DNA from: Somniosus microcephalus
Taxonomy: Eukaryota
Reading direction: 5' to 3'
DNA: 64,000 nucleotides
Assembly (NCBI GenBank): GCA_052327205.1
Contig: CM126226.1
Coordinates: 25,792,001-25,856,000 of the forward strand
Part shown: positions 34,136 to 64,000 of the stretch, piece after piece
How the letters are laid out: every line of letters begins with the position of its first letter
Numbering within the stretch: position 1 is the first letter of the stretch
Notes under the pieces: generated by a model
The model's database searches: none
The model's input: only the letters and a program-made list of their open reading frames with translations
Told to the model about the DNA's origin: nothing
Position numbers and translations under genes: made by a program

Positions 34136-34194
34136 GTAATCTGCTGCCTATTAGATAGCAAACAACTCAACTAAAATGTAAGATTAGTTAATCA

Positions 34195-39785: not shown

Positions 39786-40654
39786 GTAATGAAGCGTCTT
39801 TTAACAATGCACTTTCATATTGTACAAAGGTGAACATTCTGAAGCCCCGTCCAGGATATTTTGAAAACAAATCCAAAAATGGTATGGAAAGCAGAGTGGT
39901 TGAAAGGATTGCAAGCTGCCTTCTGGCAGTATGGGTATGCAAGATGCAGGTTCAAGCCTGGGCAAGGAAGTAGCAAATAGCTCAGGTGACTGGCTGGAGC
40001 ATGAGAGAGAACCATCGACATAGAGGGATGGGGCAGCAATAGGAAGATTTGCTCTGCCTTTATGCTGCTGTAAATTTCTATGGTTCAGTAGCAGAGAAAG
40101 AAACAAGGCCATGGGGAGAAAGTGGGGCAGTGCGATTTAGTTTTGGATTGCTCTAGCAAAGAGCCGCCAGAGGCATAATGGGCCGAATGGCCATCACCTG
40201 TGCTGTAAATTGTTATGGCTCTATGGGATCAGTTCTGATGCCCCCATGATCGAACAGTCTGCCAACATTTGCTACCTAGGTTCTTGCATGAAGAATCTCA
40301 ACTTGGATGGGGTGCTGTGGGGTTATCGCCATCTATGGAACCGTATCGCAGTGAGTGTTCAGATCATTCAGGATGGGGGGAATGAGACGTTGTGTTGGAG
40401 AGGACAGGGCGGTTAATTGCAAATCCTCATGACTTGTTTCGACCCTTCATCAGCTTGCATGTTGTTTTGCTGAGGAATGGTCTTGATTGTATGAAACTCC
40501 ACTAAAAGGGGTCTGGAACCCGTTGGGTTTGTAGGTGAAAGAGCACTTCTTTGGAAAATCTTATTTGTTCATACAAGGAAAAAGGCCAAAGTATTTTTGT
40601 TTGTTTTATTATTAAATGCTGCTAAGACTTTTGTTTCTTTCTGTACTTCGCAAG

Positions 40655-40810
40655 ATTGATAACCAGCTCTTGGGAACAACGCAGCCTGTGATACTCTCAC
40701 TGACCCCCAACAGCCTTGAAAGTGAAACAGAAAGCATTGAATCGGGCCCTGCTGTTCAGATCAATGCAATGAAGATCCCCAGCAAGAGTGCACTGACTGA
40801 ACTCTTCAAG
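40655..40810 (+). CDS. VPS13D: VPS13D exon 21 of 25
   Basis: cgcaag|ATT GAT AAC CAG..TTC AAG|gtgtgt; IDNQLLGTTQPV..GPAVQINAMKIPSKSALTELFK; 156 nt; less common AAG acceptor. Confidence 0.93.
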
Positions 40811-43290: not shown

Positions 43291-43387
43291 CATCTCATGA
43301 TCACAGTGCGGAAGCTGACAGTTCAAATCGAAGAGAAACTTTTGCTGAAGCTGCTGCGCTTCTTTGGCTTGGGGCAATTGGACCAAG
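43291..43387 (+). CDS. VPS13D: VPS13D exon 22 of 25
   Basis: ctgcag|CAT CTC..CAA G|gtacga; HLMITVRKLTVQIEEKLLLKLLRFFGLGQLDQ; 97 nt; not in ORF track. Confidence 0.94.
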
Positions 43388-45585
43388 GTACGAGATATAA
43401 ACCAGGTGGCTGATGTTACGCGGTTGCCCAGTACAAAAACTGCTGCAGATTGTCCCATTGCATGTTAACATTGGAACCTGCAAACTGCACAAAGTTGCCT
43501 GTTGCAGTATGTTGATGTACTGGTGCGTTGTTCAAAGGGTAGCATGAGTTCATAGGCACTGCTTACCAAGATTGTGTTTTTGTTTTACCTGGCCATTTCT
43601 TGGGGAGTCCAAGAGAGGTAATGGAATGGTACACCCCAGGATAAATGAGCCCACAGCAGTGTTCTCCAGTAACAGTGGCCTCTAGACGTAGACAAGTATT
43701 TGAAAGCAGGTTTATTTTATTTCTCCTAGTTTTGGAGTGATACAAATTACTGCAAAGGACATTTAAAAGTTTTGGGTTTTTTTCAATTTTTGATTTGTGT
43801 AAAAGCTAGCACTCGTAGAATTGGTGAATATTGCCCTCTGTATTCATAGGATTACCTCCCTTTTGGAGAGAAGGGAAATTGGAGGGAGAGTTCAGTGTTG
43901 CCTCAAGGATTTTAGTAAAGAGCAATGGTGGGTGGGTGAAATTTTCTACTTGAACTGTGAAAAACACACAACTGCACCATTATAGATTTTGTCCTTCCAC
44001 ATTTGGGTTGTATCTGGAAAGAGTATTTTGAGCTGTATTACACAAAGGTGTAAAATACTAGTAGGGTACAGTCTGTCATGTGGTGGCAGTGGTTGGAACA
44101 ATTTGAGATGATGAATTAAAAGTGGATTAGCTTAAGTACAACTTAGTACTGGTACGCTAAATAAGCCTAAGAACAGCTCTGGAATTGTTCCTGAGCTACT
44201 GCCACTTGCCTCTTCTCAGCTGACTTGAAAGCACTGTTGGAAGAGATCTAGGTGCAGTTGCTCACCTATCCTCCCGCACTTGAGCAGTGAGACACGAAAT
44301 TTTCATCATGGGGTACCAAAAGAGGAGAAAAAAATTATAGGCTTACGTATTGTCTAATGTAAACCATGTAGAAAGATTCATCATGACGTTTGTCGATGCT
44401 GTCTCAAAAAATGAAGAGAAAATTCAGCCCTTTCTGCTGTACATTCCTACTAATTACCTTCTTCAAATGTTATTTGTAATTTGGTCTTTCAAGTTCATGT
44501 AAATGGAGTTAATAAAGTGTACGCACTATGCTGTGCCCTGAATCTCTCGGAAGAGCATCTCCCCTTAAGCATCTGTGTTAATATTTTGTTTTCCCATATC
44601 AGTCATTTTCCCCTCGGAGAGTGCCAATTAATGTTCATTTAGGGTTAGTTTTAAGCTGTGAGCCCACACATATCCAGAGTTGCACTGAGACAACCCCAGT
44701 TTATTTTGCTTAGGACGTACTGCAGGCAGTGAGCAGCAATTTTCATTCAGCCTGGCTGAATTTGAACTCCCATCCCAGAGGTGAAAGGATCTCTAAGTCA
44801 AGTCAATTATCTCCCAGTTCCTTTGTAAATATATTTATTCATTGTTTGTAATGTTTCAAAATCAAGAAATTTGTGTATCAGGAAGCTTTAATTAACTCAA
44901 GTTGAAAGTGCACATGGAGAGCAGAGGACCGCAGTCTCACTGAAGAGTTCAATAGTTTAGGCTCCTAATTGTCCAGCTAACCCTTTGTTTACCTTTTCTG
45001 GCTTCAGGATGCTTAGTGTTTGTGATTTTAATTATTTGTACAATCCAGTTTTACCAGATATTTAAGAGCACATATTTAAGTGCATATCTCTAACAGTAGC
45101 TCATTACATCAATTTAGCATGAATCACCGACATTCTACAAGATGGTTTCATTTACATTGAAATGTATGTAGCATAGAATAATTTCCCTGCAGGCTGCCCT
45201 GATACCCAAGAGCTTTTGAAGTGATGCCAGCAGGCTGGGTGGTAAGATGTACCACCGATTGAGCATTTTTATGACAGAAAGGGAATCACAGCCACACCTC
45301 TCTTCCTCACTTCACCTGATGGCCACAGGGGTACCCTTCCAGCAGGACCTCAGAGTGCTGATCAGGAGTTCATGTTTCGTCCTCTTTCCTTTTCCCCTTT
45401 GAGCTCAGGGAGGCCGAGGTCAACTAACTCAACACACAATGGAAGTTGAACCTCTGGTCTCCTGAGCCATTAGCAGAGCTGTTCAAGGACTTTTCTTAAA
45501 TTAGAATGACTTTTGTTAGAAAACCATGAAACAGATTTACATATATTCCCATTTCTACTCTGTTATAACCCTCTGGTCTGTAATA

Positions 45586-45916
45586 CAGGAAACTTTGTGA
45601 TATCCGGCACCGACGGGACCAAGCTGTTGCCATCCCATCAAAACTGCCGGACAAACCAGCGCTAATGTTGAAACATACGGAGATTTTGAGCTCCGTATCT
45701 GGCAACAAACCGTGTTGCTGAGCAACAGCTTCTAAACAGTCGGCCGTACCTTGCAAGCATCTCTGTAGCTTAGCAACAGCTTCAGCGAGACCTTGCAGAG
45801 CCTGACTGGTGGGAAAAAAAAGCAATGAAAAAAAAACCTAACGAAACGGCTCCTGATTTTTGCCGGTGGCTTGAGCATTCCGGACAATTAACCTCCGGAT
45901 AAACCAAAGTTTCCTG
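45586..45916 (+). mobile_element. Tigger/pogo-type MITE family A, copy 3
   Basis: TA|caggaaactttg ... caaagtttcctg|TA. Confidence 0.9.
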
Positions 45917-46300
45917 TATTTTGTAAGCATGCATTTTCTTATCAGTCAGAATCTCCAGTGGAGGGGTTCGTATGGTTCATATACAGTGGAGGTGTCCAGA
46001 GCAGGGCCATTTCCAAACCTTGAATCCCGGCAATCCAGCCCACAAGCACGAGCCTAGTTATGCTTATATCTTCTCACTGGTTTGCCCTATTTGTATTTCT
46101 TGGGCCTGGAGGTTTAGAAGGGACTGTTTTTGGGGGTTGTGGAATCTGTTCGTATAGCAACTTGAGATATATGCAAACTGAGGGAACATGGATTTAAACT
46201 TTATATGTGACCCACAGAGCTCTGTGGTATGCACCTATGTGGCCCATGAAGGTAAAAAGCTTGGACACTCCTGTTGTGTGAAATAGTGAATATCTGGAGC

Positions 46301-46398
46301 GAGTTACAGGCTGGAATCTAATTGAGGGGCTTGGATGGTTTATATATAGAATAACAGATATGCAGGAATGAGTTACAGGCTGGAATCTAATTGAGGGG
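46301..46398. repeat. Short minisatellite-like array, 69-bp period
   Basis: gagttacaggctggaatctaattgagggg occurs exactly at 46301-46329 and 46370-46398. Confidence 0.8.
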
Positions 46399-47282
46399 TT
46401 CAAAAGAGTTCTGTAGCTTCTTTCTGAACCTTACGGTTAATTAGCTGCCTTGAAACCACTCTAGGATATGTTAATCATTATAATCCATGCTGTAAAATTT
46501 ACAGGGTAGTTTCATTCAATTTTAATTCTAGCAGTGGCACTCATTATGGATCCTAACTGCCAGCATACTTCACTTCATTGATATTCACCCAGAAGGATCA
46601 AGGCTTTTAACATTGCCACTGACGGATTGAAAAATCATTTATAATTGAATTAGTCACAAATTCCATGGCCAATTTATATGACTCTATGCCTGGAAGGCAA
46701 GATCTTTAGTCTATTGCTCGACTGGGAAATCATCTAAATATAGACCCACAGAGAAACTTAAACAAGTACAGATGCAGTTTGAAGTTCTGTCTTAAACTGA
46801 CAACCCCTTCTGTGTATAATTGCATGTTTTCCTCTATTATACCATGTTGTCTGATCCTTGGGACAGTCGCGATGTGATTTGGAGGGTTAAGATTCCCTCA
46901 TGTAGGGAATGGTCGCCTTCTGTGCCGTAAATTTCTATGATTCTATGGAGGCCAGAAGATAAGTCTCTCTCTCTTTTCCCCCCCCCCCCCCCCACCTTGT
47001 TTGACCACCAGCAAATTGCAGCTGCACAAGTGCACGGGTTCTTGAAAAGGATAGAGGGAATCTGTTGCAGTATGGTGGCGGTGAATTCGACAGAGTAACC
47101 TTTCTAAAAAGAAAACTTTTAGATTAGCTCACTTTGATCCTTTATAGTAAAGATCCTGTTAGTAAATTGCTAGGTGCGTGAGGATTGTGTTTAATTGAAA
47201 TCTCTATCGGCACTATTTAATGATTGCTTGTTATCAATTTAAAATGCTTGCCAACATAGTAATATGGTGCTGAAAACTTTTA

Positions 47283-47607
47283 CAGGAAACTTTGTGATAT
47301 CCGGCACCGACGGGACCGAGCTGTTGCCGTCCCATCAAAACTGCCGGACAAACCAGCGCTAATGTTGAAACATACGGAGATTTTGAGCTCCATATCTGGC
47401 AACAAACCCTGTCAGCTTCTAAACAGTCGGCTGTACCTTGCAAGTGTCTCTGTAGCTTAGCAACAGCTTCAGCAAGACCTTGCAGAGCCTGACTGGTGGA
47501 AAAAAAAAGCAACGAGAAGAAAAAAAAACTAACGAAACGGCTCCTAATTTTTGCCGGTGGCTCGAGCATTCCAGACAGTTAACCTCCGGATAAACCAAAG
47601 TTTACTG
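47283..47607 (+). mobile_element. Tigger/pogo-type MITE family A, copy 4
   Basis: TA|caggaaactttg ... caaagtttactg|TA. Confidence 0.9.
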
Positions 47608-47823
47608 TATTACATTATCGTTGAACAGTGAGGCTTAAATTTGAGTACGGTACATGGTTGATAACCATATTTAGCCCTGGCTGTCCTTCGAACAAACAGC
47701 TCCCTAAACTACCTATTGATTGCATTCATTTTGCAGGAGCAATTCATTCTCTCAGCTATGAACGTCTGACGGGGTCTATTGCTTTAAGTAGCCTGTCACA
47801 CTATCTCCTTCCTTCCCTCGCAG

Positions 47824-47972
47824 ATGTAGAAAAGCCAGATGAAAATGCCCCTGAGCAGAATAGTGAGCAAGGTGGGACAGCAAAGCGCTACTATTTTGAA
47901 AACCTCAAACTCAGCATGCCACAAATCAAGATGAGCGTGTTTACTTCCAGCAAGTTGCCTGTGGAGCTCAAG
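47824..47972 (+). CDS. VPS13D: VPS13D exon 23 of 25
   Basis: tcgcag|AT GTA..CTC AAG|gtgagt; VEKPDEN..EQGGTAKRYYFENLKLSMPQIKMSVFTSSKLPVELK; 149 nt. Confidence 0.95.
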
Positions 47973-49324
47973 GTGAGTTTCTAAAAACCACACTATACAT
48001 CTTGAGGAACACAAAACAATTCTTTTTAAAGAGACTTGCTAATGTGGGTGGCCTGTGATTGCCAGAGAGCACCACAATCCTGGCCACTGTAATGGGTCCA
48101 GTAAGTTTATTACTTGTGCTAAATAATAAATGAAGTAACATATTGTAAGCAAGAGATATGTGAAATACATCCCAGTACTATACGCGATTTGTGAACCACA
48201 GTATCTTACCCGCCTGCTGTATCTTTTGAAATGGAGCAGCAACTTCAGACAGTAATGCCAGATTCAAGCAGTTCACTTACAGCTTAGTTTGGAGGCAGAG
48301 TGTTTTTGTGTATTTAATTACACAAAATTAATTTTTAATTTAAGTCTGTAACTTGGCTTGGGTAGTATGCATTCATGTGTATTCCTTGAATTGGGTGCTT
48401 TGTGTTATAATTCTTAGTTGGCTGTGTGGGGCTCTATAACTCGTTATTTCTCAATGAATTTTGTGTATGACAGCCTACATAAAGTACCAGAATATGATAC
48501 ATTTATGGTATTGCTTCCTTCCCCCTTTTCACCCCACCCCCTTTTTCCACCCCCCTTTTCACACCCTCCCCTCCCTCTTTTTACCTCCCTTTTCACCCTC
48601 CCTCTTTTCGCACCAACCAACTCTACTTCTCTGTTTTCCAAATTGCTGTTAGGTTTTCTCTCTCTCCTTCCCCCTCTTCTCCCCAACCTTTTATTTTCAT
48701 CCCTGTTTGATTGCATTCTGTCTCGAATTGGTGTATGATAACACCTCTTTCTGATGACATTTATTAAATCCTAGTCACTCTCCTGCCCATGGGAAGTTGA
48801 GAACAAATGTGGTTTTCAGGTGAAGCTGTGTTGGAGAATAAGGGCTAATTGGACGAGGGCTTGCGGACATAATTCGGCCCCCATATTAAAGTCATACGCC
48901 TGTCCTTAATTTTATATAATACTTCAATTTTATATTATCATTTACAGTTAAATAACAAAACCTAACATCAATTTGGAAAGCAAAGAAGTAGAGTTGGTTG
49001 GAGCATAGGAGTTTCACTGCAGTGCAGGCTGAGGAGCTGAGAGATGAAAAACCAAGGTGCTACATTGCCACCACTGGGGGGGGGGGGGATTATAATTACA
49101 GTACAAGTTTAGACAGGCAGTTTACATTATAAATATGGACACAGTCATTTATAATTGGAAAAATTGACTGTTGAAAAATTGCAATCAGAAAGTAAGGTTT
49201 TGTCAATTGGAAGTCTGCGCAGATGTAATCTTTTGAGATATTGTCGATAGATTTGGACATCAATGGAAATTAGTGAAAAGTAAAAGTAAATTAAAAAGCA
49301 TACCTTATTGAATCCCAGAAATGT

Positions 49325-49910
49325 CTCAACATCACTAAACAAACAGATGATCTGGTCATTATCACATTGCTGTTTGTGGGAGCTTGCTGTGCACAAATTG
49401 GCTACCACGTTTCCTACATTACAACAGCGACTACACTTCAAAAGTACTTCATTGGCTGTAAAGTGCTTTGGGACATCCTGAGGTCATGAAAAGAAGCTAT
49501 ATAAATGCAAGTCTTTTTCTTTCAAAGTGTTTCACATACAATGGATTACTTGCAGGTGTAGTCACTGTAGTTATGTAGGCAAATACAACAGCTGTTTTCC
49601 ATTCCACAAGATTCCACAAATAGTAATGAGATGACTGACCAATTAATCTGTTTTTGGTGGTGTTGGTTAGGGAATCAGGACACTGGGGGAATACCCTGCT
49701 CTTCAAATGGTGCCATGCATTCTTTAACTACCATTTAAACTACTGGTATGAGCAGATAGGGCCTTCCTTAACATTTCATACAAAGGACACCTCTGATCGT
49801 GCAGCATTTTCTCGGTACTGCACAGGAATATCAGTCTAGAATATGGGAACTTGACACCCAATCTTCTGACTAAAAGGTGAGAGTGCTATTGACTGAGCCA
49901 AGCTGACAGT
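49325..49910. mobile_element. Two Deu-domain SINE remnants arranged tail-to-tail (+ 49325-49515; - about 49520-49910)
   Basis: The first matches the 3' half of 29035-29465; the second matches its reverse complement (ggacactgggg..ccctgctcttc..gtgcca..actgagcca). Confidence 0.65.
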
Positions 49911-50371
49911 AAAATTTAAGACAAATATCCAAAAGAGATTCAGTGAAATATTTAGAATAACCTACCAAGGAAGACAAAAGAAGTAGAACCACCGGTTATT
50001 CAAATATAGTTATATGCTGTGATAGGAGGGTTGGGGCACTGGAGGAATGAGCTCTTACGGGTGAGTGAGCTTTTCTTGTCCCTGACATTTTTAGGTTCTT
50101 ATCGCCAAGTTCAGACTTTTGACCTTTGCAAATGACAGGATCAAACTATATGAATCATCCTAATCTCATGATATGTTTGACTCCCAGCTGGCTGTCAATA
50201 CCAGTTGTCACTAAGTAGAGTAAAAATGACAGGTTAGTTTCCGACAACAGCCTGCAGCACTGCTCTGCCTGTAACATGACATTCCGAGTGAGCGTCCACT
50301 GTGAACTCACAGAATTAGTGATCTTTTGCTGCTGTCATGCAAGATCAATTTGGTGCTTTTTTTTGTTGCAG

Positions 50372-50506
50372 GCTTTGAAGGGCATGCTGGGAATCCGGTT
50401 GATCCGGTTTGAGGATGCAGTTATTCACATGGATCCGTACACCAGAGTGCACCCGTATGAGACGCAGGAATTTATCATCAATGACATTCTCAAGCACTTT
50501 AAGGAG
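50372..50506 (+). CDS. VPS13D: VPS13D exon 24 of 25
   Basis: ttgcag|GCT..AAG GAG|gtgagg; ALKGMLGIRLIRFEDAVIHMDPYTRVHPYETQEFIINDILKHFKE; 135 nt. Confidence 0.95.
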
Positions 50507-51624
50507 GTGAGGATTAGAGTGGGCAGTTGAGCTTGTTAGAACTTGTGTAGTTAGTCGAGAACAACAAAGTTCATATTTTCCAGTGTGTGAATGTGAATGT
50601 GTCCGAAGTGGGAGGTGATATTCCCTCTTCAGAATAAATGTTTTCAGTCTAAGCAGTGATACATGGGCATATAACCCAAAGTTGTTAGTTAAAGCCTTCT
50701 AGACTGTGCGGACTATACAACAGTATCAAAAGTGTTTTACTTTCTTCTTCCAACGTTTACTTCTGTATATTTCCCCCCACCCCCTCCGGGCAAGATCTGA
50801 AGGACAAACAACAGGTTTGGCAAAATTCTGTATTAATACTTCAACATCGGATGAGGTTTTGTTGGGCAGTGTAGTGCAGATTAAAACTATTAGAGGATGC
50901 TCTACTCTAATCAAATCAAATAACAGTATTTGTGACAAAGTGTGCAACTTGTCACAGTTCCCTGGTTCTCCCAACATCTAACCTGCTGGTCACACTCAAG
51001 ACCATTGTGTTGGATCTTGGACAAGTGATTAGGGTAACCCAGGGATCATTTATTAGTTTTCTTGGGTTAGTTTGCACAATATTGGATTCCCATTGTTAAG
51101 ATTTTCAAACTACTTTTCTCCCTCTGCTTTTCTTCTTTTGTATCTTGGTGGTGCAGAGTTATATTGTATTGACCACAAAGGGGACCTCATAGGCAAGCCC
51201 TCCAGTACATCATCTAGTTGGTCATTATTCATGTGTAAGCTTAGACAGTAACTGATGGCAAGCTCGTCAATCTCTTTGGGAGCATCAGGGCTGAGCCCTC
51301 ACCCAGCATCCACTTGTGTGTACTTTCCAACTGGAGTGGGAACCCTGGCTGATTCACCGCGCCCCCCCCCCCCCCCCCCCCAATTACCTAGCCAAACACC
51401 GAGCAATTGTAGCACCCCAGCTGAGATCAGCTAACTTAACAGAACATGGGTTGAACCTGGGACATTCCTGGTCTGGACGGCTCAGTACCAGACTGGGTGG
51501 TGCATTTGGTGTATTTACTAAATGATCTATTAGAGGAACATAGATTTTCCAACTTTATAAGTTTGCAAGTGGCATGCTCAACTTGCATGAATCATGGTTA
51601 GTTGGTGACATGTCAGAATCCCAA

Positions 51625-53748
51625 CTGATTGTTGTTTGGCGTACTGACCTCTACCTAGCGGAAGCTGAACGCCAACTCTCCGACACCTCCTCCTACCTCC
51701 ACCTGGACCATGACCCCACTACCGAACATCAAACCACCGTTTCCAAGACTGTCACTGACCTCATCTCCTCTGGAGATCTTCCCCCCCGCTGCCACCAACC
51801 TCATAGTTCCCCAACCCCGCACAGCCCGCTTCTACCTCCTTCCCAAGATCCACAAACAGGACTGCCCTGTTCTTGCCCCACGGAACTTATCTTTTCCTAT
51901 CTTGACTCTATCTTTTCTCCCCTTGTCCAGTTTCTTCCCACCTACATCCGCGACTCTTCGGACGCCCTCCGCCACTTTAACAGTTTCCAGTTTCCTGGCC
52001 CCAACCGCTTCCTTTTCACCATGGACGTACAATCCCTCTACACCTCCATCCCCCACCCGGATGACCTGAGGGCACGCCGCTTCTTCCTTGAACAGAGGCC
52101 CGACCAGTCCCCATCCACCACTACCCTCCTCCGCCTGGCTGAACTTGTTCTCACATTGAACAACTTCTCCTTTAACTCCACTCATTTCCTCCAAATCAAA
52201 GGTGTTGCCATGGGTACCCGCATGGATCCTAGCTATGCCTGCCTTTTCGTGGGCTATGTGGAACAATCTTTGTTCCAGTCCTACTCGGGTCCCCTCCCTC
52301 ACCTCTTTTTCCGATACATTGATGACTGTATCGGTGCCGTTTCCTGCTCTCGCCCCGAACTTGACAATTTCATTCACTTTGCCTCCAATTTCCACCCTTC
52401 CCTCACCTTCACATGGTCCATCTCTGACTCTTCCCTTCCCTTCCTCGACTTCTCCGTCTCCATCTCTGGGGATAGGTTATCGACCAATATTCACTACAAG
52501 CCCATTGACTCCCACAGCTAGCTGGACTACACTTCCTCCCACCCCGCTTCCTGTAAGGACTCTATTCCATTCTCCCAGTTTCTCCGTCTCTGCCGTATCT
52601 GCTCCGACGATGCCACCTTCCACACCAGTGCTTCAGACGTGTCTTCCTTTTTCCGCAACCGAGGATTCCCCTCTACCGTGGTTGACACTGCCCTCGACCG
52701 TGTCAGTTCTATCTCCCGCACTTCTGCCCTCACCCCTGCCCCTCCCTCCCGGAACCACGATAGGGTTCCCCTTGTCCTCACCTTTCACCCCACCAGCCTC
52801 CAGATTCAACAGATCATCCTCCGGCATTTCCGCTACCTCCAAAGTGATCCCACCACCAAACGTATCTTCCCCTCCCCTTTCAGCATTCCGCAGGGACCGC
52901 TCCCTCCGAGACACCCTAGTCCACTCCTCTATCACCCCAAACAGCCCTTCCCCTTCGCCTGGCACCTTCCCGTGCAGGCGGAGGAGATGTAACACCTGCC
53001 CCTATACCTCCCCCCTTCCCACTGTCCAGGGCCCCAAACACCCCTTCCAGGTGAAACAGCGATTTACTTGTACTTCTCGCAATCTAGTATACTGTATTCG
53101 CTGCTCACGATGCGGTCTCCCCTACATTGGGGAGACCAAACGCAGATTGGGTGACCGCTTTGCGGAACACCTCCGTTCAGTCCGTAAGGGTGACCCCGAG
53201 CTTCCGGTTGCCTGTCATTTTAATTCACCACTCCATTCCCACTCGGACCTCACCGTCCTTGGCCTCTTGTATTGTTCCACGGAAGCTCAACGTAAACTCG
53301 AGGAACAGCACCTCATCTTCCGATTAGGCACTCTGCAGCCTTCCGGACTCAATATCGAGTTCAACAATTTCAGATCATAAGCTCGGCCCCCATTTCATTT
53401 TTTCTTGTAATTTTTCCACTCCTTTCCCCCCCCCCCCCCCCCTTTCCTTTTGTTTCTCTCTCACACCTGGCAGCTATCTTTTGCCCTGCCAGTACACTTT
53501 ACACCTAATCTCAGCCTATTACCATCTCGTCTAGCTTCTAATCTCTTTTACTTCTTTTGTTTCTTTTATTCTTTTGTCCGATCGCAGCCCTGCCTTCGAT
53601 CTAGTTTCTTTTCTTTCCAGTTTTGAAGAAGGGTTCGACCCGAAACGTCAACTCAAATTTCTCTCCACGGATGTTGCCTGACCTGAGTTTTTCCAGCATT
53701 TTCTGTTGTTATTTTGGATTTCCAACATCTGCAGTATTTTGCTATCGT
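51625..53748 (+). mobile_element. Penelope-like retroelement (RT + GIY-YIG endonuclease), 5'-truncated and disabled, with terminal repeat
   Basis: RT motifs TMDVQSLYTSI, GVAMGT and FRYIDD; GIY-YIG NLVYCIRCSRCGLPYIGET..LGDRFAEH; in-frame TAG at 52519-52521 and frameshifts near 51790 and 52870; ORF ends with TAA at 53380; terminal repeat 53615-53748. Confidence 0.93.
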
Positions 53749-54684
53749 GATTGTCAATACTATTTGGCAATAAATTGAGTTCTTGCAGTAGCCTAAAGCA
53801 ATGCTGTATCTGTTATTGTGCATCATTAACCCATGTGCATTCTTTGCTGTGATTCTAATCACTCCTCCCTCGTCTGTGATGCTTGTCAATTCTGTTTATG
53901 ATATGAGTGTTGTCTGATCTCGCTTCTCTGATGGTTCAGTAGATAAAGGCACTGCATGGCATGATATTGCATCAGACAGACTGTAATCATCTGAGAAATG
54001 GGACAGGTCACAGATTCAATTCCGTGTCTGATACTTTAGCCAGTCTCAGCCAGGACAGTGGTGGGGGCATTACATCTGGCCTTTATTTCCAACCTTGAGT
54101 TCAGGATAATATGGATTGATCTCGAGTGAGCCCTCGGCTGTAAAGTGAAGTGATCTGCCCCTCCCCTCCCCAACCCCAATAGCCTGCTAATAATCAGGCT
54201 CTGGGTTCATGCACATAGAATGACTACTTGGGTGAGTTACTGGAGACCTGGTGACGCTAATGGAGCTATACCCTAGCATGAGTCAGTGCCTTCAGGGAAT
54301 GAGGAAATCACCTGTGCTGAATGGAACTTCAAAATTATGATTACAGAGAAAGTGTCAGGAAAGAATCTAGTACCAAACGTACCTGCATCTTTTATCTCGA
54401 TTTTCCCCATTTGGTCTCTAATCTGAATTGTTTTCCAAGTCCAAGCTCTATACAAGCACCCATTGAACAGCGATCTGAGGAGTAATTTTTAATCTCGGCA
54501 CGCAGTCTAATGTCACATCTCATGAGAGCATATCTGCAACCACTGGGAACATCTAGATTTGCCTCCACTATGAGTGAAATTGGTTTCTACTGTATCATAA
54601 CTGATATTACAGAAAGGGCTTGGAAAGGCCTGTGCTTTCTAACACTGCTGACACTAAAGCACTTCTTTCAATTGAATGGGTACC

Positions 54685-55076
54685 AAAGTGTAGTGGGTTT
54701 GTTACTAGACTGCTAATTCAGAGGCCTGGACTAGTAATCCAGAGAACGAGAGTTCAAATCCCACCATCGCAGTTTGAGAATTTGAATTAACTTTATAAAA
54801 CATTTTTTTAAAAACTTGAGATAAAAAGCTGGTAATAATAAAAAGTAACCATGAAGCTGCTGGATTGCCATAAAAATGCATTTGGTTCATTAATGTCCTC
54901 TAAGAAAGGCAACTTGCCATTCTTACCAGGTCTGGCCTATCTGTGACTCACCCAGTCCCACACCAATGAGGTTGACTCTTAACTGCCCTCTGAAGTAGCC
55001 TAGCCAGCTACTCCGTTATACAACCATCTTTTCAAGGATGGCCAATAAAGTAACACCCACATCTCGAGAATGAATA
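54685..55076 (+). mobile_element. SINE-sized derivative of the tRNA-headed LINE family
   Basis: The head matches 18425-18730 and is fused directly to the family's 3' tail (ttcaagg..aataaa..cccacatc..aatgaat) with no coding part. Confidence 0.75.
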
Positions 55077-55125
55077 TTGAAAGAAATAGTCGGTTTCAGA
55101 CAGTAAAATGTATTTTTATTCTCAG

Positions 55126-55293
55126 GAGTTGATAAGTCAGGCAACTCGAATCCTGGGCTCGGTGGATTTTCTGGGTAATCCCATGGGGCTTCTGAACGAT
55201 GTATCGGAGGGCGTCTCCGGGCTGATCAGATATGGGAACGTTGGAGGCCTGATACGAAATGTCACGCATGGTGTCTCCAATTCAGCAGCTAAG
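55126..55293 (+). CDS. VPS13D: VPS13D exon 25 of 25
   Basis: tctcag|GAG..GCT AAG|gtacgt; ELISQATRILGSVDFLGNPMGLLNDVSEGVSGLIRYGNVGGLIRNVTHGVSNSAAK; 168 nt. Confidence 0.96.
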
Positions 55294-55559
55294 GTACGTT
55301 ACACAAACAAATAAAACAAGCTGACTGGTGTTTTGTTCATGATACAGCTGTTAGTGTGCATGGATTTATTTCCATCTGCTGACTGGAAATTTCCTCTCTT
55401 AAAATAGTAAACTTTGAGCATATGATCAGTGTTTTTAGTTAAAGTCTGATTTAGCTTGTGGTTACGTTAAACCTCTGGTCTTGAAAATATTAAAGTATGA
55501 GATTCCAGTGGGATTTCAGTAAAATGTAATGATGCAGATATAAAAATCACAACCACCCT

Positions 55560-56260
55560 GGGGGGGGGGGGGGAATTCGCCTCCCTTGCGCCTGCTGTTA
55601 ACGCCTCCGGGGGGCGCTAACTGGGCACAAAGGGCTTATCACCCGGGCGGGGGCGCTAATAGCGCCTGCCGAGAAATTCGGCGGGGCGCTACTGAGGCGC
55701 TAGCCGATAACGCCACGCTCCCGCCGGTAGCGTCCCAGGCCTCTGCGCCGCCGGCGATGACGTCATTGCTGAGCGATGCAAGCCCTTAGCGCCCCCACGG
55801 CCGAAATTCGGCTGCGCCCCACGAGGCTGCCACGGTCGATGTCCGCGACAACCTTGCAAGCCGGGCCACACACCGCTGGCAGGGCACTAATTAAAGGGGC
55901 AGGATGGCTGCGCCCCGTGCTGACATTTTTTATTTTGGCCGGCCCCTCTTGGCGTAGTCCGTGGCCGCCATTGCGCCGTCCAGCACCACGTCTCTGTGCT
56001 GGGCTGCAGCCACGGCACCACGCCGCCCTAGTGGAGCCTGTCAAACGGAAGGGGAGGGGTGCTGAAACGCATCAGCGCTATGCGGCGTGGCCGCATGGCA
56101 CTACCACGCTTTGCGCCTCACGCACCGCCCCAAGAGGAGGTGAAGTGCCCGAAATAGCGCTCTGCTTCCTCGCCGGGGCAGTAAGCCCAATTTAGCAGCC
56201 GTGGCAGTACTCCCACCCCGGGTGCTAAATGTGAGGCGCTAATTCGGCTACTGCCCCCCC
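55560..56260. mobile_element. GC/CpG-rich MITE related to 5786-6420 (opposite orientation)
   Basis: The left part resembles the reverse complement of 6250-6400 (gcggggcgcta, cgatgacgtca); degenerate gaatt..cgcctc termini. Confidence 0.6.
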
Positions 56261-56620
56261 AAAAATGTGTGTACTATATTCACTTGACTTTGCAACCAGG
56301 ACTGCACTTCAAAAGTAATTCATTAGCTGAGAAGCGTTTTGGGACATCTGAGGTTGTGAAAGGCACTATATAAATGCGAATTCCTTGTTTCTGAACAGTG
56401 AAAATGCCCAGCAATATAATTATAGATTTTGCCCTTCCAGTCATAAGTTGTACATGAAGCGAGCATTTTGAGCTGTACAACACTAGGGTGACTACAAGTC
56501 TGTGATTGGTAATGATGGGAGCAATTGAAGTAATGAATTAAAAGTATCACACACACTACTGGCACGATGCTAAACTGTATTGGCTAAATGGTGATTTTTA
56601 ATAATTGCATACTAGCACCA

Positions 56621-56967
56621 ATACAGAAATCACAGAAACCCCACAGTGCAGATAGAGGCCATTTTGGCCCATCGAGCCTGCACCGACACATATCCCACCC
56701 TATCCCCGTAACCCCTACACCAAGACATATCCCACCCTATCCCCGTAACCCCATGTATTTAATCCCCCTAACACTAAGGGTCAATTAATCATAGCCAATC
56801 AACCTAACCCGCACATCTTTGGACTGTGGGAGGAAACCGGAGCACCCGGAGGAAACCCACGCAAACACGGGGAGAATGTGCAAACTCCACACAGACAGTT
56901 GCCCGAGGCCGGATTCGAACCCGGGTCCCTGGCGCTGTGAGGCAACAGTGCTAACCACTATGCCACC
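56621..56967 (-). mobile_element. HE1-like V-domain SINE with CR1-derived tail
   Basis: Minus strand reads ggtggcatagtggttagcactg..gggttcgaatcc (A/B boxes), then gtgtggagtttgcacattctccccgtg..gggtttcctccgggtgctccggtttcctcccacagtccaaagatgtg (V-SINE core). Confidence 0.88.
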
Positions 56968-57789
56968 TTAGCGATCGACGTAGGGTAAATGTTGTCAGAC
57001 GAGACTCCCAACACAGAGGTCTGCCCAGTGGAAAGAAACATGGTTCAAAGAATCAGTGTGCCCAATTTGTAGTGATTCTGATTTTCTGGCAATTAATGTT
57101 CATTTACTCTTGTGTTCCTGACCTTGTTTGCAAATTCTAAACTACAAAGAATTGCAACATAAAAGAGAAGGTGGCTGTAACAAGGAAATTTAAAAAATAT
57201 ATAATATACAATGCTGGAAAACCACAGCAGCTGCTGTAATGAGAAAAGACAGGTTACTGTTTTGGGTGTAAACTCTCCCATTAGGACTGGAAGAAAAGCA
57301 AGCCCCCTTTCTGGGACTGAACAAAACAGGAGTGGGGGGCGTACATCACACTCCTGTTGGAAACAGGCACAATGGGTTTGATAATCTGCAAACAGAACTG
57401 CAGCTGTGAGTACTTTGTGTTCTCCAAAAAAATAGATCTAGGTAAGTTTAAAAACGCTAATCACTGTCACTTCCTGTCAAACCACTTGCTGACGGGAAGT
57501 GAGTGGCTCTTGACTGAATCTGGAAATCAAAAGGGTGGGATCCTGTGGGAAGAACAATAACCTGTAATTAAGAATTATCTTTTAACTTTGTAACTAAAGT
57601 ACTTCCTCCTTTACTTGACTTCTCTATTTCATAATTACTGCCAGCATATAAGTCACACCTTAATTTGGAGGGGGGTGGGGAGGGAGTGAGGCCATTGTTT
57701 TTATTTATTTATATAGAAGGTACCAGCAGTTTGCAGGCTTCTAAAGCCAAAGCCCCCACACTGCTGCTTTATGGGCAGTTCTCAGTCAC

Positions 57790-57892
57790 ATGACTCTATT
57801 TCTCTCTCCACGGACGTTGCCTGGCCTGCTGAGTTCTTCTAGCATTTTCTGTTGTTTTGGATTTCCAGCATCCGCAGTATTTTGCTATCGTA
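57790..57892 (+). repeat. Solo Penelope terminal-repeat fragment
   Basis: Matches 53652-53748. Confidence 0.8.
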
Positions 57893-58402
57893 CATTTTAG
57901 AGAAGTCTTGTTATGTCCTTAGACTGGAACATGAGGTAATGTAACTGGTGAATGATCACTTATACAGAAGATGGCTCAATATTGTCCACCAACTCAGTGG
58001 GCAAGTAATATGTGGGTAAATTTTACAGTTTAGTACTCCAGGTGCAGAGTTTCATGCAGCAGGAGCACATATCGGGCATCTGGGCACACAGGTGAGTGCA
58101 CATGATTCGTGGCCTGTCTGGTTTTTAAATTATTCAAAATTACTATCCAGACCAGACTGCTGGAGTTTCGGTTTCTTCTGACAAGTGTAAGAGTTCTAAG
58201 TGAGGAGAGTTTGGGGCAATGCTTAGTAGCATGAGATTGCAACCAAGAACTGTCCATAATTTACCATTCTTTGGCAGTCTCCACTCAAGCATTATTAATG
58301 TGACATATCAGTGTTGCTGTGTTTTTTTTTAACTGGGAGACTTGGATGAAGGGACAAGATCTATAGGCAAGACATCACTAAAGTTGAGAAGAGTAGCAGA
58401 CA

Positions 58403-58496
58403 GCAACAGAAAATGCTGGAAAAACTCAGCAGGCCAGGCAACATCCGTGGAGAGAAAATAGAGTCAACATTTCGGGTAAAAACCCTTTGTCAAGAC
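58403..58496 (-). mobile_element. 94-bp Penelope terminal-repeat insertion with 11-bp TSD
   Basis: Flanked by agtagcagaca at 58392-58402 and 58497-58507; the body is the reverse complement of 53620-53710. Confidence 0.82.
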
Positions 58497-58619
58497 AGTA
58501 GCAGACAACACTACCTAAACCGTGGGTAACATTGCGGGGTGGGGAGGGAAGCCATTGCTGGAGATGCTCTGGCTCCAGTCATATAGATAAGGGTGGAACC
58601 AAGTGAGCACAGTCCCACT

Positions 58620-58860
58620 GAGCTGGATAACAGCGCACAGGTGTGTGTAGAGAGGTAAAGGAGGACAAGGAAAAATAATGCACCACAGTCACAGAGCATG
58701 TCATTTGTAATTGGTCAGGGCCATTTTGGTGCTGTGACAAGCAGAAATCTGATTGGAGGGATTCAAATATGGAGTTGTGGGAAAGATGGACATGAATTTG
58801 GGAGGCGACAGCATGTTCACTGACCTTGGAGAGGAAAGGGAGGTTGGAGTTTGGGGTCAA
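58620..58860 (-). mobile_element. Old L2 RT fragment
   Basis: SNLPFLSKVSEHAVASQI..LSHNSIFESLQSDF resembles the L2 RT N-terminal motif. Confidence 0.65.
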
Positions 58861-60878
58861 GGGACCAGGAGGTGGGTTTCATGGACAAGATGAGATGAGC
58901 TTAGAAAGGGCACAAGAGGAAATGGGAGAAAAGCCTAGATATCAACACTGAGGTTGCATGAAGGAGGTTGAATAGAATAATCCCCAACTTGATGGGGTTT
59001 ATTCCAAGTCCTATTTCCTTGTTGAGGGCAGTGAACACAAGTGACGGGACCTAAACCTGCTAAAGTACTAAGTAATGTTACAAACCACGTTCAGACTCTT
59101 CCACCAGTGCTTATGATGAACAGTTCAGTGGTGAGCATGAACTGATTACATACAGAAGAAAAGCGTATAAAAAAATTAATAAATAAAATGGATGGCAAAA
59201 ATATAAAATGAAAGTGGGATGTATAGCTGGGGTACAATTCTCACCAGCATGTATACAGTGACATTAAAAAATGTGTACATGTATCCTATTTTACAAGAGT
59301 TTTTCGTATCCACTTTACAAAGTCTTTAAAAGCAATTGTTTTTCTAATCTTATTAATTACAGAACATGACTTGGAACCAAGAGCTTTGAGTGTTATCTGT
59401 GTTTGCCATTTTTTGGTTTTGTTCAGAATAGTTCGGACTAATGTGGTAGTTCTTAGTTCATATAAAGTATAATTGCTTTTCCATTTTGTCACAGAGCTCC
59501 ACTAGGTGAACTCTCCCCGTTTAAGTCTAACCCGTCGAGAGCAGTTCAACATATTTATCTTGGCAAGCAGTCGAGGTTGAAAGAAAGTTCACATCAGCTG
59601 GCTCTGCACTTGTCCTTTTGCTGCACTGTCTATCTTTTAGGTTTAAACAGTACTTTGATCCTAAATATAGTCACCAGAGAGAAATTATTCCTTCTTAAGA
59701 CATCACTTTAAATATTTTTCTTGTTGTAGTTCACATGAATGTAAATAAACTAGAGGGAGTTGAATAAACTAGAGGGATGTATAAAGATACATTTTTCTTC
59801 AGTTTTTGTTCACATAAAAGTTATATTAAGTAGCAGTCCTGTCTCACATTTAACAAACTGCAAAACCAGTGATAACTTCAGTGGGTCTCACCTTCCTCGT
59901 TATACTGCAAGTTGTAAATTATGTGGAAATTGATTTTAAAACACTGATAGGAAGGAAAAGCAACAAGATTTTTACACTTTTCCTGATACAAGTGTATTCT
60001 GAATACAAGCATTGTATCTTCACCTATAATTTCTAAGCTGTATTGTAATAAGTGTCCAGGATTGTGATGTTATTGGACAAATAATTAGCTTTCAAGCGCA
60101 AAAAAGTGTTAAACAAGACTGTCTGACTCCATCCATGTGATGAACAACCAGCTGCCCAGTTTTATGCAGGGATCTGCAGATGTTCCATTTTATATGGTTT
60201 TAGGTTGCATCCAAAATAATTTACAGCACCCTGTTTGTACCACAGTGCATCGAAAGGTCACTTGGAAACTTTTATCCCTTATTTGCTCATTATTTTTCCA
60301 AATTTTTTGTAACCTGACCAATCCAGTACGATTATATGTGAGGATGCAATGATGTTATTCAGAATTGCCGCAACAAATGTTTAATCAACAATAGTGTAAA
60401 ACTCTCGTTACTTTTCTTTTATCTGATTCTGCTAACTTTGTCCTGTAAATGTTGTACTCTGTAGACTAGTGGAGAAATCAACTTTCCCAAAACAATTTTG
60501 ATGCAGTTTATAATTTACAACCTGCTGGATATGGGGGAGATGAGGAGCAACGAGATTTTTGCAGCCATAAAGTCTTCCAGGGTGGGAAGGGTCTGACTGG
60601 CTGGAGTATGTCCGTTGCACTCACATTAGTAGTGTTCTCGTAATAAAGCCATCCTGAGCTGTTGTGTGAGGATGCATTTTTTATGCTGGATATTTACTGA
60701 CAGAACTTCATTGTGCTATTTTATAATGTGAATTATCATTTGCTGGGAACGTTGCATCGATAGTGTTTTGCTATTTGTTAACGAGTGCTAACAGGACTTA
60801 ATATTTTAACTGAATAGCAAAATTATACGAATGTCTGTATATACCCTTGAAAAATGTTTCAGTGGTTTTATTGACATA

Positions 60879-61362
60879 CAGGAAACTCTCGTTTAAACGG
60901 CACCTAAATATCCGGAATTCCCTATTAACCGGCAAAATTCTCACTCCGAAAACAACACCTCAGTAACCGGCAATGTTGCCGAGTCCGAGTCTCCCGCGGT
61001 AGCTGAGTTAGTCAGTGGGGGTAGTTCTCCAAACTGCCACTACTCGGCCTCTTGGCGCTGTCGGAGATCCGAACACCTCAATAACAGGAGTCTGACTCTC
61101 CCGCGCTGCCAGTAGTCTCTTCTGATCCGCCATTTTACAGGGGTACTGTGTGTCTCCCACGCTTCTGGCAGTACTGTACTTAATCAAGCATCTTCCACCA
61201 TCCATTTAACACATTCTGTAGGTGAGTACCCAATTACTGTATACTGCACATTTTTTTTAATTTTTCTTTGTTAAAAATAGCCTCGGTAAATAACCCTCTC
61301 CGTCATCCGGAATTTTTGATCAACCGGCAACACGCCGGTGCCGGATACCAAAGAGTTTCTTG
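60879..61362. mobile_element. Tigger/pogo-type MITE related to family A, with a different interior
   Basis: TA|caggaaactct ... agagtttcttg|TA; the right-end reverse complement (caagaaactctttggtatccggcacc) matches the family A left end. Confidence 0.82.
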
Positions 61363-62421
61363 TAATATGGGAAGACGACAGTTTTCTTTTGCAGGAGGGC
61401 AGCTAAACCTTGTTGCAAATGACCTGGTAAAGAAATTGATAAAAACTAAACCGTGCAAGTGATAGAAATCTGACCAAAAGCAGAACGTTCTGCACATGTG
61501 CAGGTCAGTTAGCATCCGAAAGAGAAAAGTGTTAACATTTGGGGTATGATTCATTCTTTATGAAAGGCTGCACCCGAGATATTAATCTTTCACATGCTGT
61601 GAATTTTCTGTTCTTAAGCATTATTGCAAAGGGAATTCAGGTTCCAGCCATTGGGTGGATTCGATAAGATGCTTTTATACTGCTGTACTGCCACTGACTC
61701 TGGATACACCGGTCTCAAGCAGCCAGTGGCAACTTCAAAATAGGTTAATTCCTATGGTGTGGGCCCCATGCATTGGGAGCCGGTGGCACTACCACGGCAC
61801 TTAACCCCATTTAGAAGTAGCTATAGCGAACCAGGCTGAGTTTCCAGGAACCCAAACACTGTGTGAACGCAGACAGCCAGCCCTGTGCATTTTGCTCTAT
61901 GCGGAAGTGAGCCTAGCACGCCTTCAGAAACTGGCTCTCCAGTCCAAGCGTAAAAGTGGGAGAGTGGCACTCGGGCATTTCTCTTCCCGAACAGGATGCC
62001 GGAAGAGCACCTTTTAAGGAGCTTGTTTTTGCCCAGGTTTTAAATATCTCCATCAACTAATGTTATTCCAATAGAACATGATTGAGCTTATATTGGGGAC
62101 GCAGCATCACAAAATTTACCCTCCTCTATGTCAGACTCCATCACCAGAATTGTCAAATTAAATTTTTAATGGTGAGGAATACCAGCTTGAACTGTAATCT
62201 ACATAGCAAATGTTGCTGTGAACTGTATTTTGCATCTTTAATTCCACTTCACTGAGTGTTTATTTAATTTAAAAAGGCACTTCTCATTGACTTAAGTGGG
62301 ATGTTCTGTTCTCTTTCTTGTAACTGGTGGTGTGCTACTGTCGGACTAAAATGGTTGGTTTGTTTGATGTGCTTGTTGTTACCCAGGGACAGAGTATCAC
62401 GTCTATGTAACAAACTGTGGC

Positions 62422-62510
62422 TGCCCTCTGGATGAACCTGCGAAGGAAGCCAGCATTTGGGGTCATTCCAAGTTCACAGTGTGGACTTTTGACTGTCCTG
62501 TGTATGAACC
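62422..62510. promoter_or_regulatory. Cluster of three DR5 retinoic acid response elements (candidate RAR/RXR enhancer)
   Basis: 62460-62476 (+) GGGTCA ttcca AGTTCA, a perfect RGKTCA-N5-RGKTCA; 62422-62438 (-) GGTTCA tccag AGGGCA; 62494-62510 (-) GGTTCA tacac AGGACA; no recognisable repeat around them. Confidence 0.72.
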
Positions 62511-64000
62511 AGTTTGGGGACCCCTACAGGGATCAGTCACTCAGGCCAGTAACACAAACCAATTTCCATTCGGCATCTGTGGGGGCAAATCCACGGGGGT
62601 TGCTCGAGGGAGCTACCAACCTAATCAGGCATCTGTGGAGACAGCTCAGAGGGGGGCCCACTGGACTACCTAGCTAATCAGACATCCACACAGACAGCCC
62701 AGTAGGGAGTTTGTTCCCAGGTTAAATCGCCAATGTGCTATTGTCAGAATGCATTACTGCCCCAAGCTAACGACAAGAGGGGGGAGCTGATTAAGGGCTG
62801 GAGCTCAGAGAATGTGACAGCAAGAATAACAAGAGTCCTCAGGACCCTGCAAATAGCCACACGTTTGTTCAGTCATGCTCAGGAAAAACAGCAACTGGAC
62901 CATTTGTTTTCTGTTACGTTAGAAAAGAGCCCAAATCTTGCTCCGCCAAATGTCCACTGATGCCTTCTGTATGTTCCAGAACTGCTCCAGCGGGCACTGT
63001 GAACTGCCCAATTAATACTGCAAGGCTGACTCCACAGCATCAATCTCACACTGAAACATGAACTATCTTTTGCATGTACAGTCATTTGAAAGTCAGATTT
63101 GCCCATTTTGTTGCTGTTCAGTGTTTCCCAGGTGCCTGGAGAGGTCTAAGCAGGTCGCCAAGCAGAAAGTGTAATGTTGTCCTGTGTGGGCTTATGCACA
63201 GCCAGAAAGAATGGTAGGCAGCAGCTGTTTGTTTACATTTGCTATTGCTGGGTGGCTGCCTCCCTGGGATAATTGCTTTTTAAGGTTTTCTGTTGATCTG
63301 GAGGCAGCAGGCTTACCGTCCTGAAGTTGGGTCCGCCACCAGCCACATTACTGCAATGTGAAGGGGCAGTAGAGTGAGCAGTGTGCTACTGTCCTGCAAG
63401 GGCAGGGCGCAGACACAAAACGGCAGCGGTTTACATTTGCCCCTGGGAGACCCTTGGGAAAACTGAGGGGGTTCTTGGCTGCTGCAGATGCAATGTTGCC
63501 AATGTTTTTACCAGATCTTCCCAGCCGCTGGCCTTGGTGCAAACAGTAAATAAACTTTCGGGTTGCCGCCGGCCCAACAGCCCTGGTGCCCCACTGAACC
63601 CTGTTTCAAAGCCGCTTTCGTGTTTGCGTTGCCCTGACCCGCTTCACATGCTGAATGGTATTAAATTACCGGCAGGGCAGCATGGTTCCCCCTGGGGCAG
63701 AAAGTGACTGGAGAATTACATTCAAATATTTACTCACATATAATCACACATCACTTTCAGCAGAAGATTTAAACTCAGCATGAAGAGATGGAAGATTTTT
63801 ACCCCAGACTACACTTGTGGAGAATTGGCAACAAATACTGACTTGTCATTGCTGATTGTCACATTTCGGGATTTCTTGACCATTTTTGCACAAAGACTTA
63901 AAGCAATGTATATTCACACACAAGTATTTTTTTAAGGCATTGAGGCGAAAGGTGGTTAAAATGCAAGCTTTTCCCAAAGATTTCAAACATTAAGCAACTC

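What the first reader, a model, noticed from the sequence alone, without database searches (positions are those of the whole stretch)
62422..62510. Triple DR5 retinoic-acid response element cluster in the long VPS13D intron: candidate ancient DHRS3 enhancer
Seen in sequence: within 89 bp there is one perfect DR5 (GGGTCA-ttcca-AGTTCA, +) flanked by two minus-strand DR5s (GGTTCA-tccag-AGGGCA and GGTTCA-tacac-AGGACA), in a stretch with no recognisable repeats. I noticed no comparable cluster elsewhere in the window. Established: DR5 is the canonical RAR/RXR site, and DHRS3, an RA-inducible retinaldehyde reductase in RA negative feedback, lies next to the 3' end of VPS13D in mammals. From memory and unverified, conserved RAREs listed for mouse Dhrs3 have very similar sequences (GGGTCA TTCCA AGTTCA and GGTTCA-N5-AGGGCA). 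Inference: this is a jawed-vertebrate-wide RA feedback enhancer held in a bystander gene, which could explain the conserved VPS13D-DHRS3 linkage.
Basis: partly seen in the sequence, partly recalled or inferred. Interest (0 to 1): 0.85.

Follow-up and report, generated by a model that had tools for sequence, protein, structure and literature searches.

The report
Shark copy of Dhrs3 retinoic-acid enhancer
Three tightly packed binding sites for the vitamin A (retinoic acid) receptor sit inside an intron of an unrelated gene in what is most likely a shark or ray; they match a switch already described in mouse that probably turns on DHRS3, a brake on retinoic acid production, so the switch looks as old as jawed vertebrates.

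Summary
The three DR5 sites are real and exceed chance (0 of 1000 simulated windows). They lie 7.1 kb into the VPS13D intron after the SNSAAK exon (human intron 65, partly inferred). The window is probably elasmobranch. Two of the three match a published mouse element, the 'Dhrs3 RARE enhancer' pair of PMC7259794 (17/17 and 15/17 identical, same order, gap 21 vs 20 nt). That pair sits in an RA-dependent H3K27ac peak and is conserved to frog but not zebrafish. Printed coordinates put it about 60 kb inside Vps13d. The corresponding intron carries RAR peaks in human and zebrafish. So this is the orthologue of a known tetrapod element. New here: the likely chondrichthyan copy, its placement in VPS13D, and a third DR5 not listed in mouse. 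Not shown: that DHRS3 is the target (no deletion or contact data found), that DHRS3 lies downstream in this assembly, or binding in shark. VPS13D itself is RA-induced, so it may not be a pure bystander. The invariant spacer contains a TEAD-like core, an untested lead.

The parts
62422..62438 (-). DR5 no. 1 (GGTTCA-n5-AGGGCA); counterpart of mouse chr4:145034847-863 (mm10)
   Evidence: 15/17 identical, both half-sites identical including the non-consensus 3' half-site
62460..62476 (+). DR5 no. 2, perfect consensus (GGGTCA-n5-AGTTCA); counterpart of mouse chr4:145034810-826
   Evidence: 17/17 identical including the spacer
62464..62470 (+). CATTCCA overlapping the 5' half-site and spacer of DR5 no. 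2; resembles a TEAD/MCAT core (motif recalled, binding untested; lacks the preferred 5' purine)
   Evidence: only such core in 62300-62900; 27 in the 64-kb window
62494..62510 (-). DR5 no. 3 (GGTTCA-n5-AGGACA); not listed in mouse; possibly a local duplicate of no. 1
   Evidence: 62418-38 and 62490-510 are 81% identical over 21 nt, 72 bp apart
55126..55293 (+). VPS13D exon ending SNSAAK (N = human N4107); last exon in the window; human exon 65 by inference
55294..64000 (+). VPS13D intron holding the cluster (runs off the window end)
   Evidence: GT donor after the exon; no downstream VPS13D exon found by tblastn
6920..55293 (+). Host gene VPS13D: 25 coding exons in the window by my tally of the tblastn hits
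   Evidence: named orthologues
59575..59591 (+). Further 1-mismatch DR5 in the same intron (GGTTGA-n5-AGTTCA); may be chance
60244..60260 (+). Further 1-mismatch DR5 in the same intron (AGTGCA-n5-AGGTCA); may be chance

Best explanation
This is the elasmobranch orthologue of the distal 'Dhrs3 RARE enhancer' described in mouse. RAR/RXR heterodimers bind the DR5 sites (RXR on the 5' half-site, RAR on the 3' half-site; established knowledge). The 21 and 17 bp gaps should leave room for three dimers (inferred). When retinoic acid rises, corepressor is exchanged for coactivator, the region gains H3K27ac and opens, and it contacts the DHRS3 promoter beyond the 3' end of VPS13D. DHRS3 then reduces retinaldehyde to retinol, closing a negative feedback loop. 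It is one of several RAR-bound elements in the last long introns of VPS13D, working alongside promoter-proximal RAREs. SHOWN here: motifs, non-randomness, host intron, identity and geometry with the mouse pair. SHOWN in papers for other species: RA-dependent H3K27ac at the mouse pair; RAR peaks in the corresponding human and zebrafish intron. INFERRED: clade, mouse site inside intron 65, which human peak is the orthologue, binding in shark, DHRS3 as target, looping.
For: Cluster not reproduced in 0 of 2000 simulated windows. 17/17 and 15/17 identity with the two mouse Dhrs3 RAREs, gap 21 vs 20 nt, same order along the VPS13D sense strand; expected exact 17-mer in the 8.7-kb intron part 1.8e-6, second element at that offset about 5e-7. 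Mouse pair conserved rodent to frog, inside H3K27ac peak chr4:145033496-145035860 that falls (log2 -0.65) in Aldh1a2-/- trunk while Dhrs3 falls -1.11; no other changed gene listed in the TAD. Mouse pair lies 59-62 kb inside the 3' end of Vps13d. Human RARgamma CUT&RUN: 5 of 9 VPS13D rows are in intron 65 of 69, the strongest of those at chr1:12433311-864 (fold enrichment 13.3), 78 kb from the gene end, close to where mouse-to-human scaling points. Zebrafish: RARaa peak 2644 (fold enrichment 14.4, the highest of peaks 2640-2644) overlaps an RA-opened ATAC peak (FDR 8.7e-9) in vps13d intron 63 of 67. The RAR inverse agonist lowers dhrs3a (log2 -5.9 and -6.7), while vps13d is absent from that list.
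Against: No deletion, reporter or chromatin-contact test of this element turned up in searches. The 2024 study of Dhrs3 regulation tested only five promoter-proximal and intron-1 regions and found RARalpha-bound elements there. The mouse paper warns that RARE deletions often have no effect. VPS13D is RA-induced: zebrafish log2 1.71 at two stages; human cells 0.48 at 6 h, lost in RARG knockout, whereas DHRS3 induction persists in that knockout (columns read from header order). No sequence conservation scored in zebrafish. Third DR5 not listed in mouse. Mouse strands are not printed, and no flanking mammalian sequence was available to align. DHRS3 is not in the window.
Confidence: 0.75

Rival explanations
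1. The RAR-bound cluster acts mainly on VPS13D itself (its main promoter or short internal 3' transcripts), or on both genes, so VPS13D is a co-target and not a bystander.
For: vps13d up log2 1.71 with RA in zebrafish endoderm at both stages. VPS13D up 0.48 in human SCC cells and listed as promoted by ligand-bound RARgamma. Annotated internal VPS13D transcripts start at chr1:12464940 and 12478549, the latter inside an RARgamma peak. In human the intron-65 peak is about 185 kb from the DHRS3 start and about 200 kb from the VPS13D start.
Against: Mouse table lists no other RA-changed gene in the TAD. vps13d is not among genes lowered by the RAR inverse agonist, and dhrs3a heads that list. DHRS3 induction is much larger (2.16 vs 0.48). 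The VPS13D signal could come from enhancer RNA or read-through (inference).
Confidence: 0.12
2. The element is a real RAR site but only a redundant or tissue-restricted contributor; DHRS3 feedback runs mostly through proximal RAREs, and gene linkage is kept for other reasons or by inertia.
For: Proximal cRE1, cRE2 and cRE5 bind RARalpha and make RA-induced eRNA. In human cells the strongest RARgamma peaks are inside DHRS3 (fold enrichment up to 21.4 vs 13.9 in VPS13D). Enhancer deletions are often silent. Sequence not conserved in zebrafish.
Against: All 17 bases of one site, spacer included, and a non-consensus half-site of the other are unchanged between mouse and this genome, which implies long purifying selection. 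This rival overlaps the best explanation in mechanism and differs in weight.
Confidence: 0.1
3. Chance or convergent motif cluster, or a repeat-derived sequence, unrelated to the mouse element.
For: An exact 17-mer is expected about 0.8 times in a 4-Gb genome. DR5 no. 1 and no. 3 look like a local duplication. The other perfect DR5 in the window (1812) lies in a self-repeat. Genome-wide copy number untested.
Against: The match sits in the same gene, with a second matching element at the right offset and order. 0 of 2000 simulations. No self-hit at the cluster.
Confidence: 0.03

Closest known systems
Mouse 'Dhrs3' DR5 RARE enhancer pair, mm10 chr4:145034810-826 and 145034847-863 (Berenguer et al. 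2020, name recalled; PMC7259794 Table 2 and S3; seen: passages, section 11, supplement rows)
   Same: 17/17 and 15/17 identity, same order, gap 20 vs 21 nt, inside VPS13D by coordinate arithmetic.
   Different: Here in a probable elasmobranch, whereas the paper scores conservation only to frog. A third DR5 is present here and not listed there. The paper's main text and searchable supplements do not mention Vps13d (0 hits in supplements; paper absent from one search).
Proximal Dhrs3 cRE1, cRE2, cRE5 (PMC11808460; parts 1-4 of 6 read)
   Same: RAR-bound RARE clusters that drive the same feedback gene.
   Different: They lie within 1.4 kb upstream or in intron 1 of Dhrs3; the distal element (about 140 kb from the mouse start site) was not among the five regions examined.
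skap1 intron-4 DR5 enhancer of the HoxB cluster (PMC8608873; passages)
   Same: Deeply conserved RARE held in an intron of a neighbouring gene; the same design.
   Different: That element aligns zebrafish to human and was tested in transgenics; this one is not scored as conserved in zebrafish, and I found no reporter test.
Genomic regulatory block with bystander gene (concept recalled)
   Same: Conserved non-coding regulatory sites for a developmental gene inside a housekeeping neighbour; linkage kept in mouse, human and zebrafish.
   Different: The target is a metabolic enzyme, not a transcription factor. The host gene responds to RA. Causation of the linkage is untested.

Membership tests
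DR5 retinoic-acid response element | Two RGKTSA-type half-sites in direct repeat, 5 nt apart | tested here: met
   one perfect site, two with one mismatch; consensus as stated in PMC11808460
DR5 retinoic-acid response element | Bound by RAR/RXR in this species | not testable with these tools
   Only indirect: RAR peaks in the corresponding intron of human and zebrafish. The mouse RAR ChIP overlap table (S4) could not be read.
DR5 retinoic-acid response element | Confers RA-dependent activity | not testable with these tools
   Mouse counterpart has RA-dependent H3K27ac; no reporter or deletion data found
Orthologue of the mouse Dhrs3 RARE pair | Sequence identity and geometry of the two RAREs | tested here: met
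   17/17, 15/17, gap 21 vs 20, same order
Orthologue of the mouse Dhrs3 RARE pair | Same host gene and intron | tested here: inconclusive
   Same gene by coordinate arithmetic (the mm9-to-mm10 offset is inferred from a peak assumed to mark the Dhrs3 promoter). Same intron only by scaling to human and by exon counting that is partly recalled.
Orthologue of the mouse Dhrs3 RARE pair | Flanking sequence aligns across vertebrates | not testable with these tools
   No vertebrate genome collection available
Genomic regulatory block (target DHRS3, bystander VPS13D) | Conserved linkage of target and host | tested here: inconclusive
   Met in mouse, human and zebrafish from printed coordinates; DHRS3 lies outside this window
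Genomic regulatory block (target DHRS3, bystander VPS13D) | Host gene unresponsive to the enhancer | tested here: inconclusive
   VPS13D induced by added RA but not listed as dependent on endogenous RA
Genomic regulatory block (target DHRS3, bystander VPS13D) | After genome duplication, enhancers stay with the target when the host copy is lost | tested here: inconclusive
   Zebrafish dhrs3b (chr11) has 4 of its 7 RAR peaks on its 3' side, labelled distal intergenic; homology of these to the vps13d peaks and loss of a second vps13d copy were not tested
TEAD/MCAT site | CATTCC[A/T] core, preferably preceded by a purine (recalled) | tested here: inconclusive
   core present at 62464, 5' purine absent; binding untested
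Interspersed repeat | Copies elsewhere | tested here: not met
   No self-hit within the 64-kb window; genome-wide not testable

The most novel reading that the evidence does not exclude
The central DR5 is a composite RAR/TEAD switch. Its spacer has stayed invariant since the last common ancestor of jawed vertebrates because TEAD binds the overlapping CATTCCA, so YAP/Hippo and retinoic acid compete or cooperate on one 17-bp site to set DHRS3 level. An array of such intronic RAREs is what has tied VPS13D to DHRS3; after the teleost duplication the array stayed next to dhrs3b without a vps13d host. A review links Yap/Taz and Dhrs3 in one clause (PMC13598204); the primary paper could not be read.
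Probability: 0.15. Interest if true: 0.72.

Novelty: new member of a known kind. Interest (0 to 1): 0.42.

Why it matters
If the target is DHRS3, the negative feedback that keeps retinoic acid in range was already hard-wired through this distal enhancer in the ancestor of jawed vertebrates (over 400 million years ago; date listing). It names a small, precise element for deletion tests. A 2022 review said no functional Dhrs3 RARE had been demonstrated, and the 2024 study looked only near the promoter. It also suggests that deep-intronic VPS13D variants or deletions could act through DHRS3 and RA excess and not through VPS13D (inference). The interest is moderate because the tetrapod element is published and intronic RAREs in neighbour genes are a known design.

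Tried and rejected
Literature: searches found no paper that links this RARE to Vps13d or tests it by deletion. One search gave 0 hits. One search matched 217 papers, of which the 25 listed had 0 mentions of dhrs3; 192 were not seen, so 'not in print for sharks' is only weakly supported. Supplements of PMC3091300 and PMC11040003 and S4 of PMC7259794 were unreadable; they may hold mouse RAR occupancy or zebrafish contact data for this site. The Hippo-Dhrs3 primary paper is not held. PMC11959543, PMC12495096 and PMC8771376 passages added nothing decisive. Two Pfam scans failed on wrong frames and were not needed. Rfam: 0 matches, so a structured RNA was rejected. A coding exon at the cluster was rejected: tblastn with three C-terminal orthologues finds nothing beyond 55293. 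The VPS13D tree (12 rows) places the window among vertebrates, outside amniotes and outside teleosts, but in an open three-way fork with no shark, amphibian or gar row, so it does not prove the clade. I first took the stretch at 45592 for an exon; it is a repeat.

Full report
Observation. The three DR5 elements are at the coordinates and strands given. The central site is a perfect consensus and the two outer sites have one mismatch each. Ten DR5 with at most one mismatch occur in the window against 4.5-5.3 expected, and three within 100 bp occurred in 0 of 1000 simulated windows under each of two Markov models. No other spacer from 0 to 10 gives even two sites within 100 bp. The cluster has no self-BLAST hit in the window, no TRF array and no Rfam match. 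A degenerate 53-56 bp tandem lies just 3' of it, and sites 1 and 3 are 81% identical over 21 nt, which may mean local duplication.

Host gene and intron. Exon searches return named VPS13D orthologues, and tblastn lays collinear exons from 6920 to 55293 on the + strand. The last exon ends SNSAAK followed by GT. Its N is 281 residues from the C-terminus in bat, marmot, kea and trout. With the 4388-residue human protein that is N4107, and 4 of 4 disease-variant residues checked fall in register. The intron therefore starts at human c.12333. Truncated gene models and one clinical paper give further boundaries near c.12465, c.12662 and c.12795. Human intron 65 of 69 is long, with peaks across at least 22 kb. 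In zebrafish, introns 63 and 65 of 67 are separated by two exons within 3.3 kb. This fits the intron after SNSAAK being human 65 and zebrafish 63, but the count of five remaining exons is partly recalled.

Organism. A reverse-transcriptase ORF at 51544-52518 has elasmobranchs as all 7 of its named vertebrate hits among the 120 listed (best 66% over 91% of the query). The VPS13D tree puts the window outside amniotes and outside teleosts in an unresolved fork. I read the window as a shark or ray; this is likely, not proven, and the novelty depends on it, because the element is already known down to frog.

What it is. PMC7259794 (passages, section 11 and supplement rows seen) lists two DR5 RAREs for mouse Dhrs3 at mm10 chr4:145034810-826 and 145034847-863. 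They are conserved in rodent, human, bird, reptile and frog, with the fish column blank. They lie in an H3K27ac peak that drops in Aldh1a2-/- trunk (log2 -0.65) as Dhrs3 drops (-1.11). Window site 2 is 17/17 identical to the first and site 1 is 15/17 identical to the second, the gap is 21 vs 20 nt, and the order along the VPS13D sense strand is the same (mouse Vps13d is on the minus strand). The paper prints no strands. Using only printed coordinates, the mouse pair is 59-62 kb inside the 3' end of Vps13d; any mouse-to-human scale from 0.93 to 1.56 maps it into human intron 65, and the neighbouring Dhrs3-to-Vps13d interval gives 1.34. No third RARE is listed for mouse.

Binding in other species. 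Human RARgamma CUT&RUN (PMC12774775 supplement) has 9 VPS13D rows: 5 in intron 65 and 4 further 3', against 12 rows in DHRS3. The peak at chr1:12433311-864 is the best positional candidate, but I could not see its sequence. Zebrafish (PMC8608873 supplements) keeps dhrs3a and vps13d tail-to-tail on chr23 with one small gene between them, and has four RARaa peaks inside vps13d. The strongest of these overlaps an RA-opened ATAC peak in intron 63. That peak is absent from supplementary file 6, which I take to be the table of RAR sites in conserved elements, in line with the blank fish column. Position and binding appear kept in teleosts while alignable sequence is not, a pattern reported for teleost non-coding elements generally (PMC11034925, abstract start only). 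dhrs3b on chr11 has four distal RAR peaks on its 3' side, a lead for the bystander model.

How it most likely works. RAR/RXR dimers occupy the sites; centre spacings are 38 and 34 bp. RA converts them to activators, and the region loops to the DHRS3 promoter, about 140 kb away in mouse. DHRS3 reduces retinaldehyde and limits RA synthesis. Receptor polarity and cofactor exchange are established knowledge; looping and target are inferred. For DHRS3 as target: no other changed gene is listed in the mouse TAD, and dhrs3a but not vps13d is lowered by an RAR inverse agonist. Against a pure bystander: added RA raises vps13d 3.3-fold in zebrafish endoderm and 1.4-fold in human cells in an RARgamma-dependent way, and short internal VPS13D transcripts begin near RAR peaks. 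Against a dominant role: proximal elements are RARalpha-bound and make eRNA, and RARE deletions are often silent.

A lead noticed on the way. The invariant spacer of site 2 forms CATTCCA with the end of the first half-site, which I recall as a TEAD/MCAT core. It is the only such core in 62300-62900, and a random spacer gives it with probability 0.002, though I noticed it after the fact and it lacks the preferred 5' purine. The mouse Tshz1 DR5 has a similar TTC-starting spacer, so receptor preference is an alternative reason. One review links Yap/Taz with Dhrs3.

Novelty and verdict. The element is known in tetrapods as a candidate enhancer. This is most likely its elasmobranch orthologue, with a third DR5. 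My searches found no paper placing it in VPS13D or reporting it in a cartilaginous fish, within the limits of the library and of the listings seen.

Noticed in passing
window 62464-62470: CATTCCA overlapping the central DR5; recalled TEAD/MCAT core; identical in the mouse motif.
   Followed up: partly
window 62418-62438 and 62490-62510: The two minus-strand DR5 with flanks are 81% identical over 21 nt, 72 bp apart; the third site may be a local duplicate.
   Followed up: partly
window 59575-59591, 60244-60260, 63587-63600: Two more 1-mismatch DR5 and one DR2 outside self-repeats in the same intron; 5 of the window's 10 DR5 lie in this intron (14% of the window; binomial P 0.006, not independent of the cluster).
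   Followed up: partly
window 62572-62707: Degenerate tandem of period 53-56 bp right 3' of the cluster.
   Followed up: no
window 51544-52989: Broken retroelement (reverse transcriptase PF00078 among hit domains; Penelope-like by my recall) with elasmobranch best named hits.
   Followed up: partly
window 1812-1828: The only other perfect DR5 in the window lies inside a repeat with self-hits.
   Followed up: no
window about 45592, 47270, 24400: Copies of an interspersed repeat that mimic an exon with an AG acceptor; not VPS13D coding.
   Followed up: partly
zebrafish chr11:29432359-29452532 (PMC8608873 supplement 5): Four RARaa peaks 3' of dhrs3b labelled distal intergenic; candidates for enhancers retained after loss of a second vps13d copy.
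   Followed up: no
human chr1:12464940 and 12478549 (PMC12774775 supplement 1): Internal VPS13D transcripts start within the 3' introns, one inside a three-summit RARgamma peak.
   Followed up: no
window 62789-62820: Homeodomain-like GATTA and MEIS-like TGACAG motifs (recalled consensus) about 300 bp 3' of the cluster.
   Followed up: no
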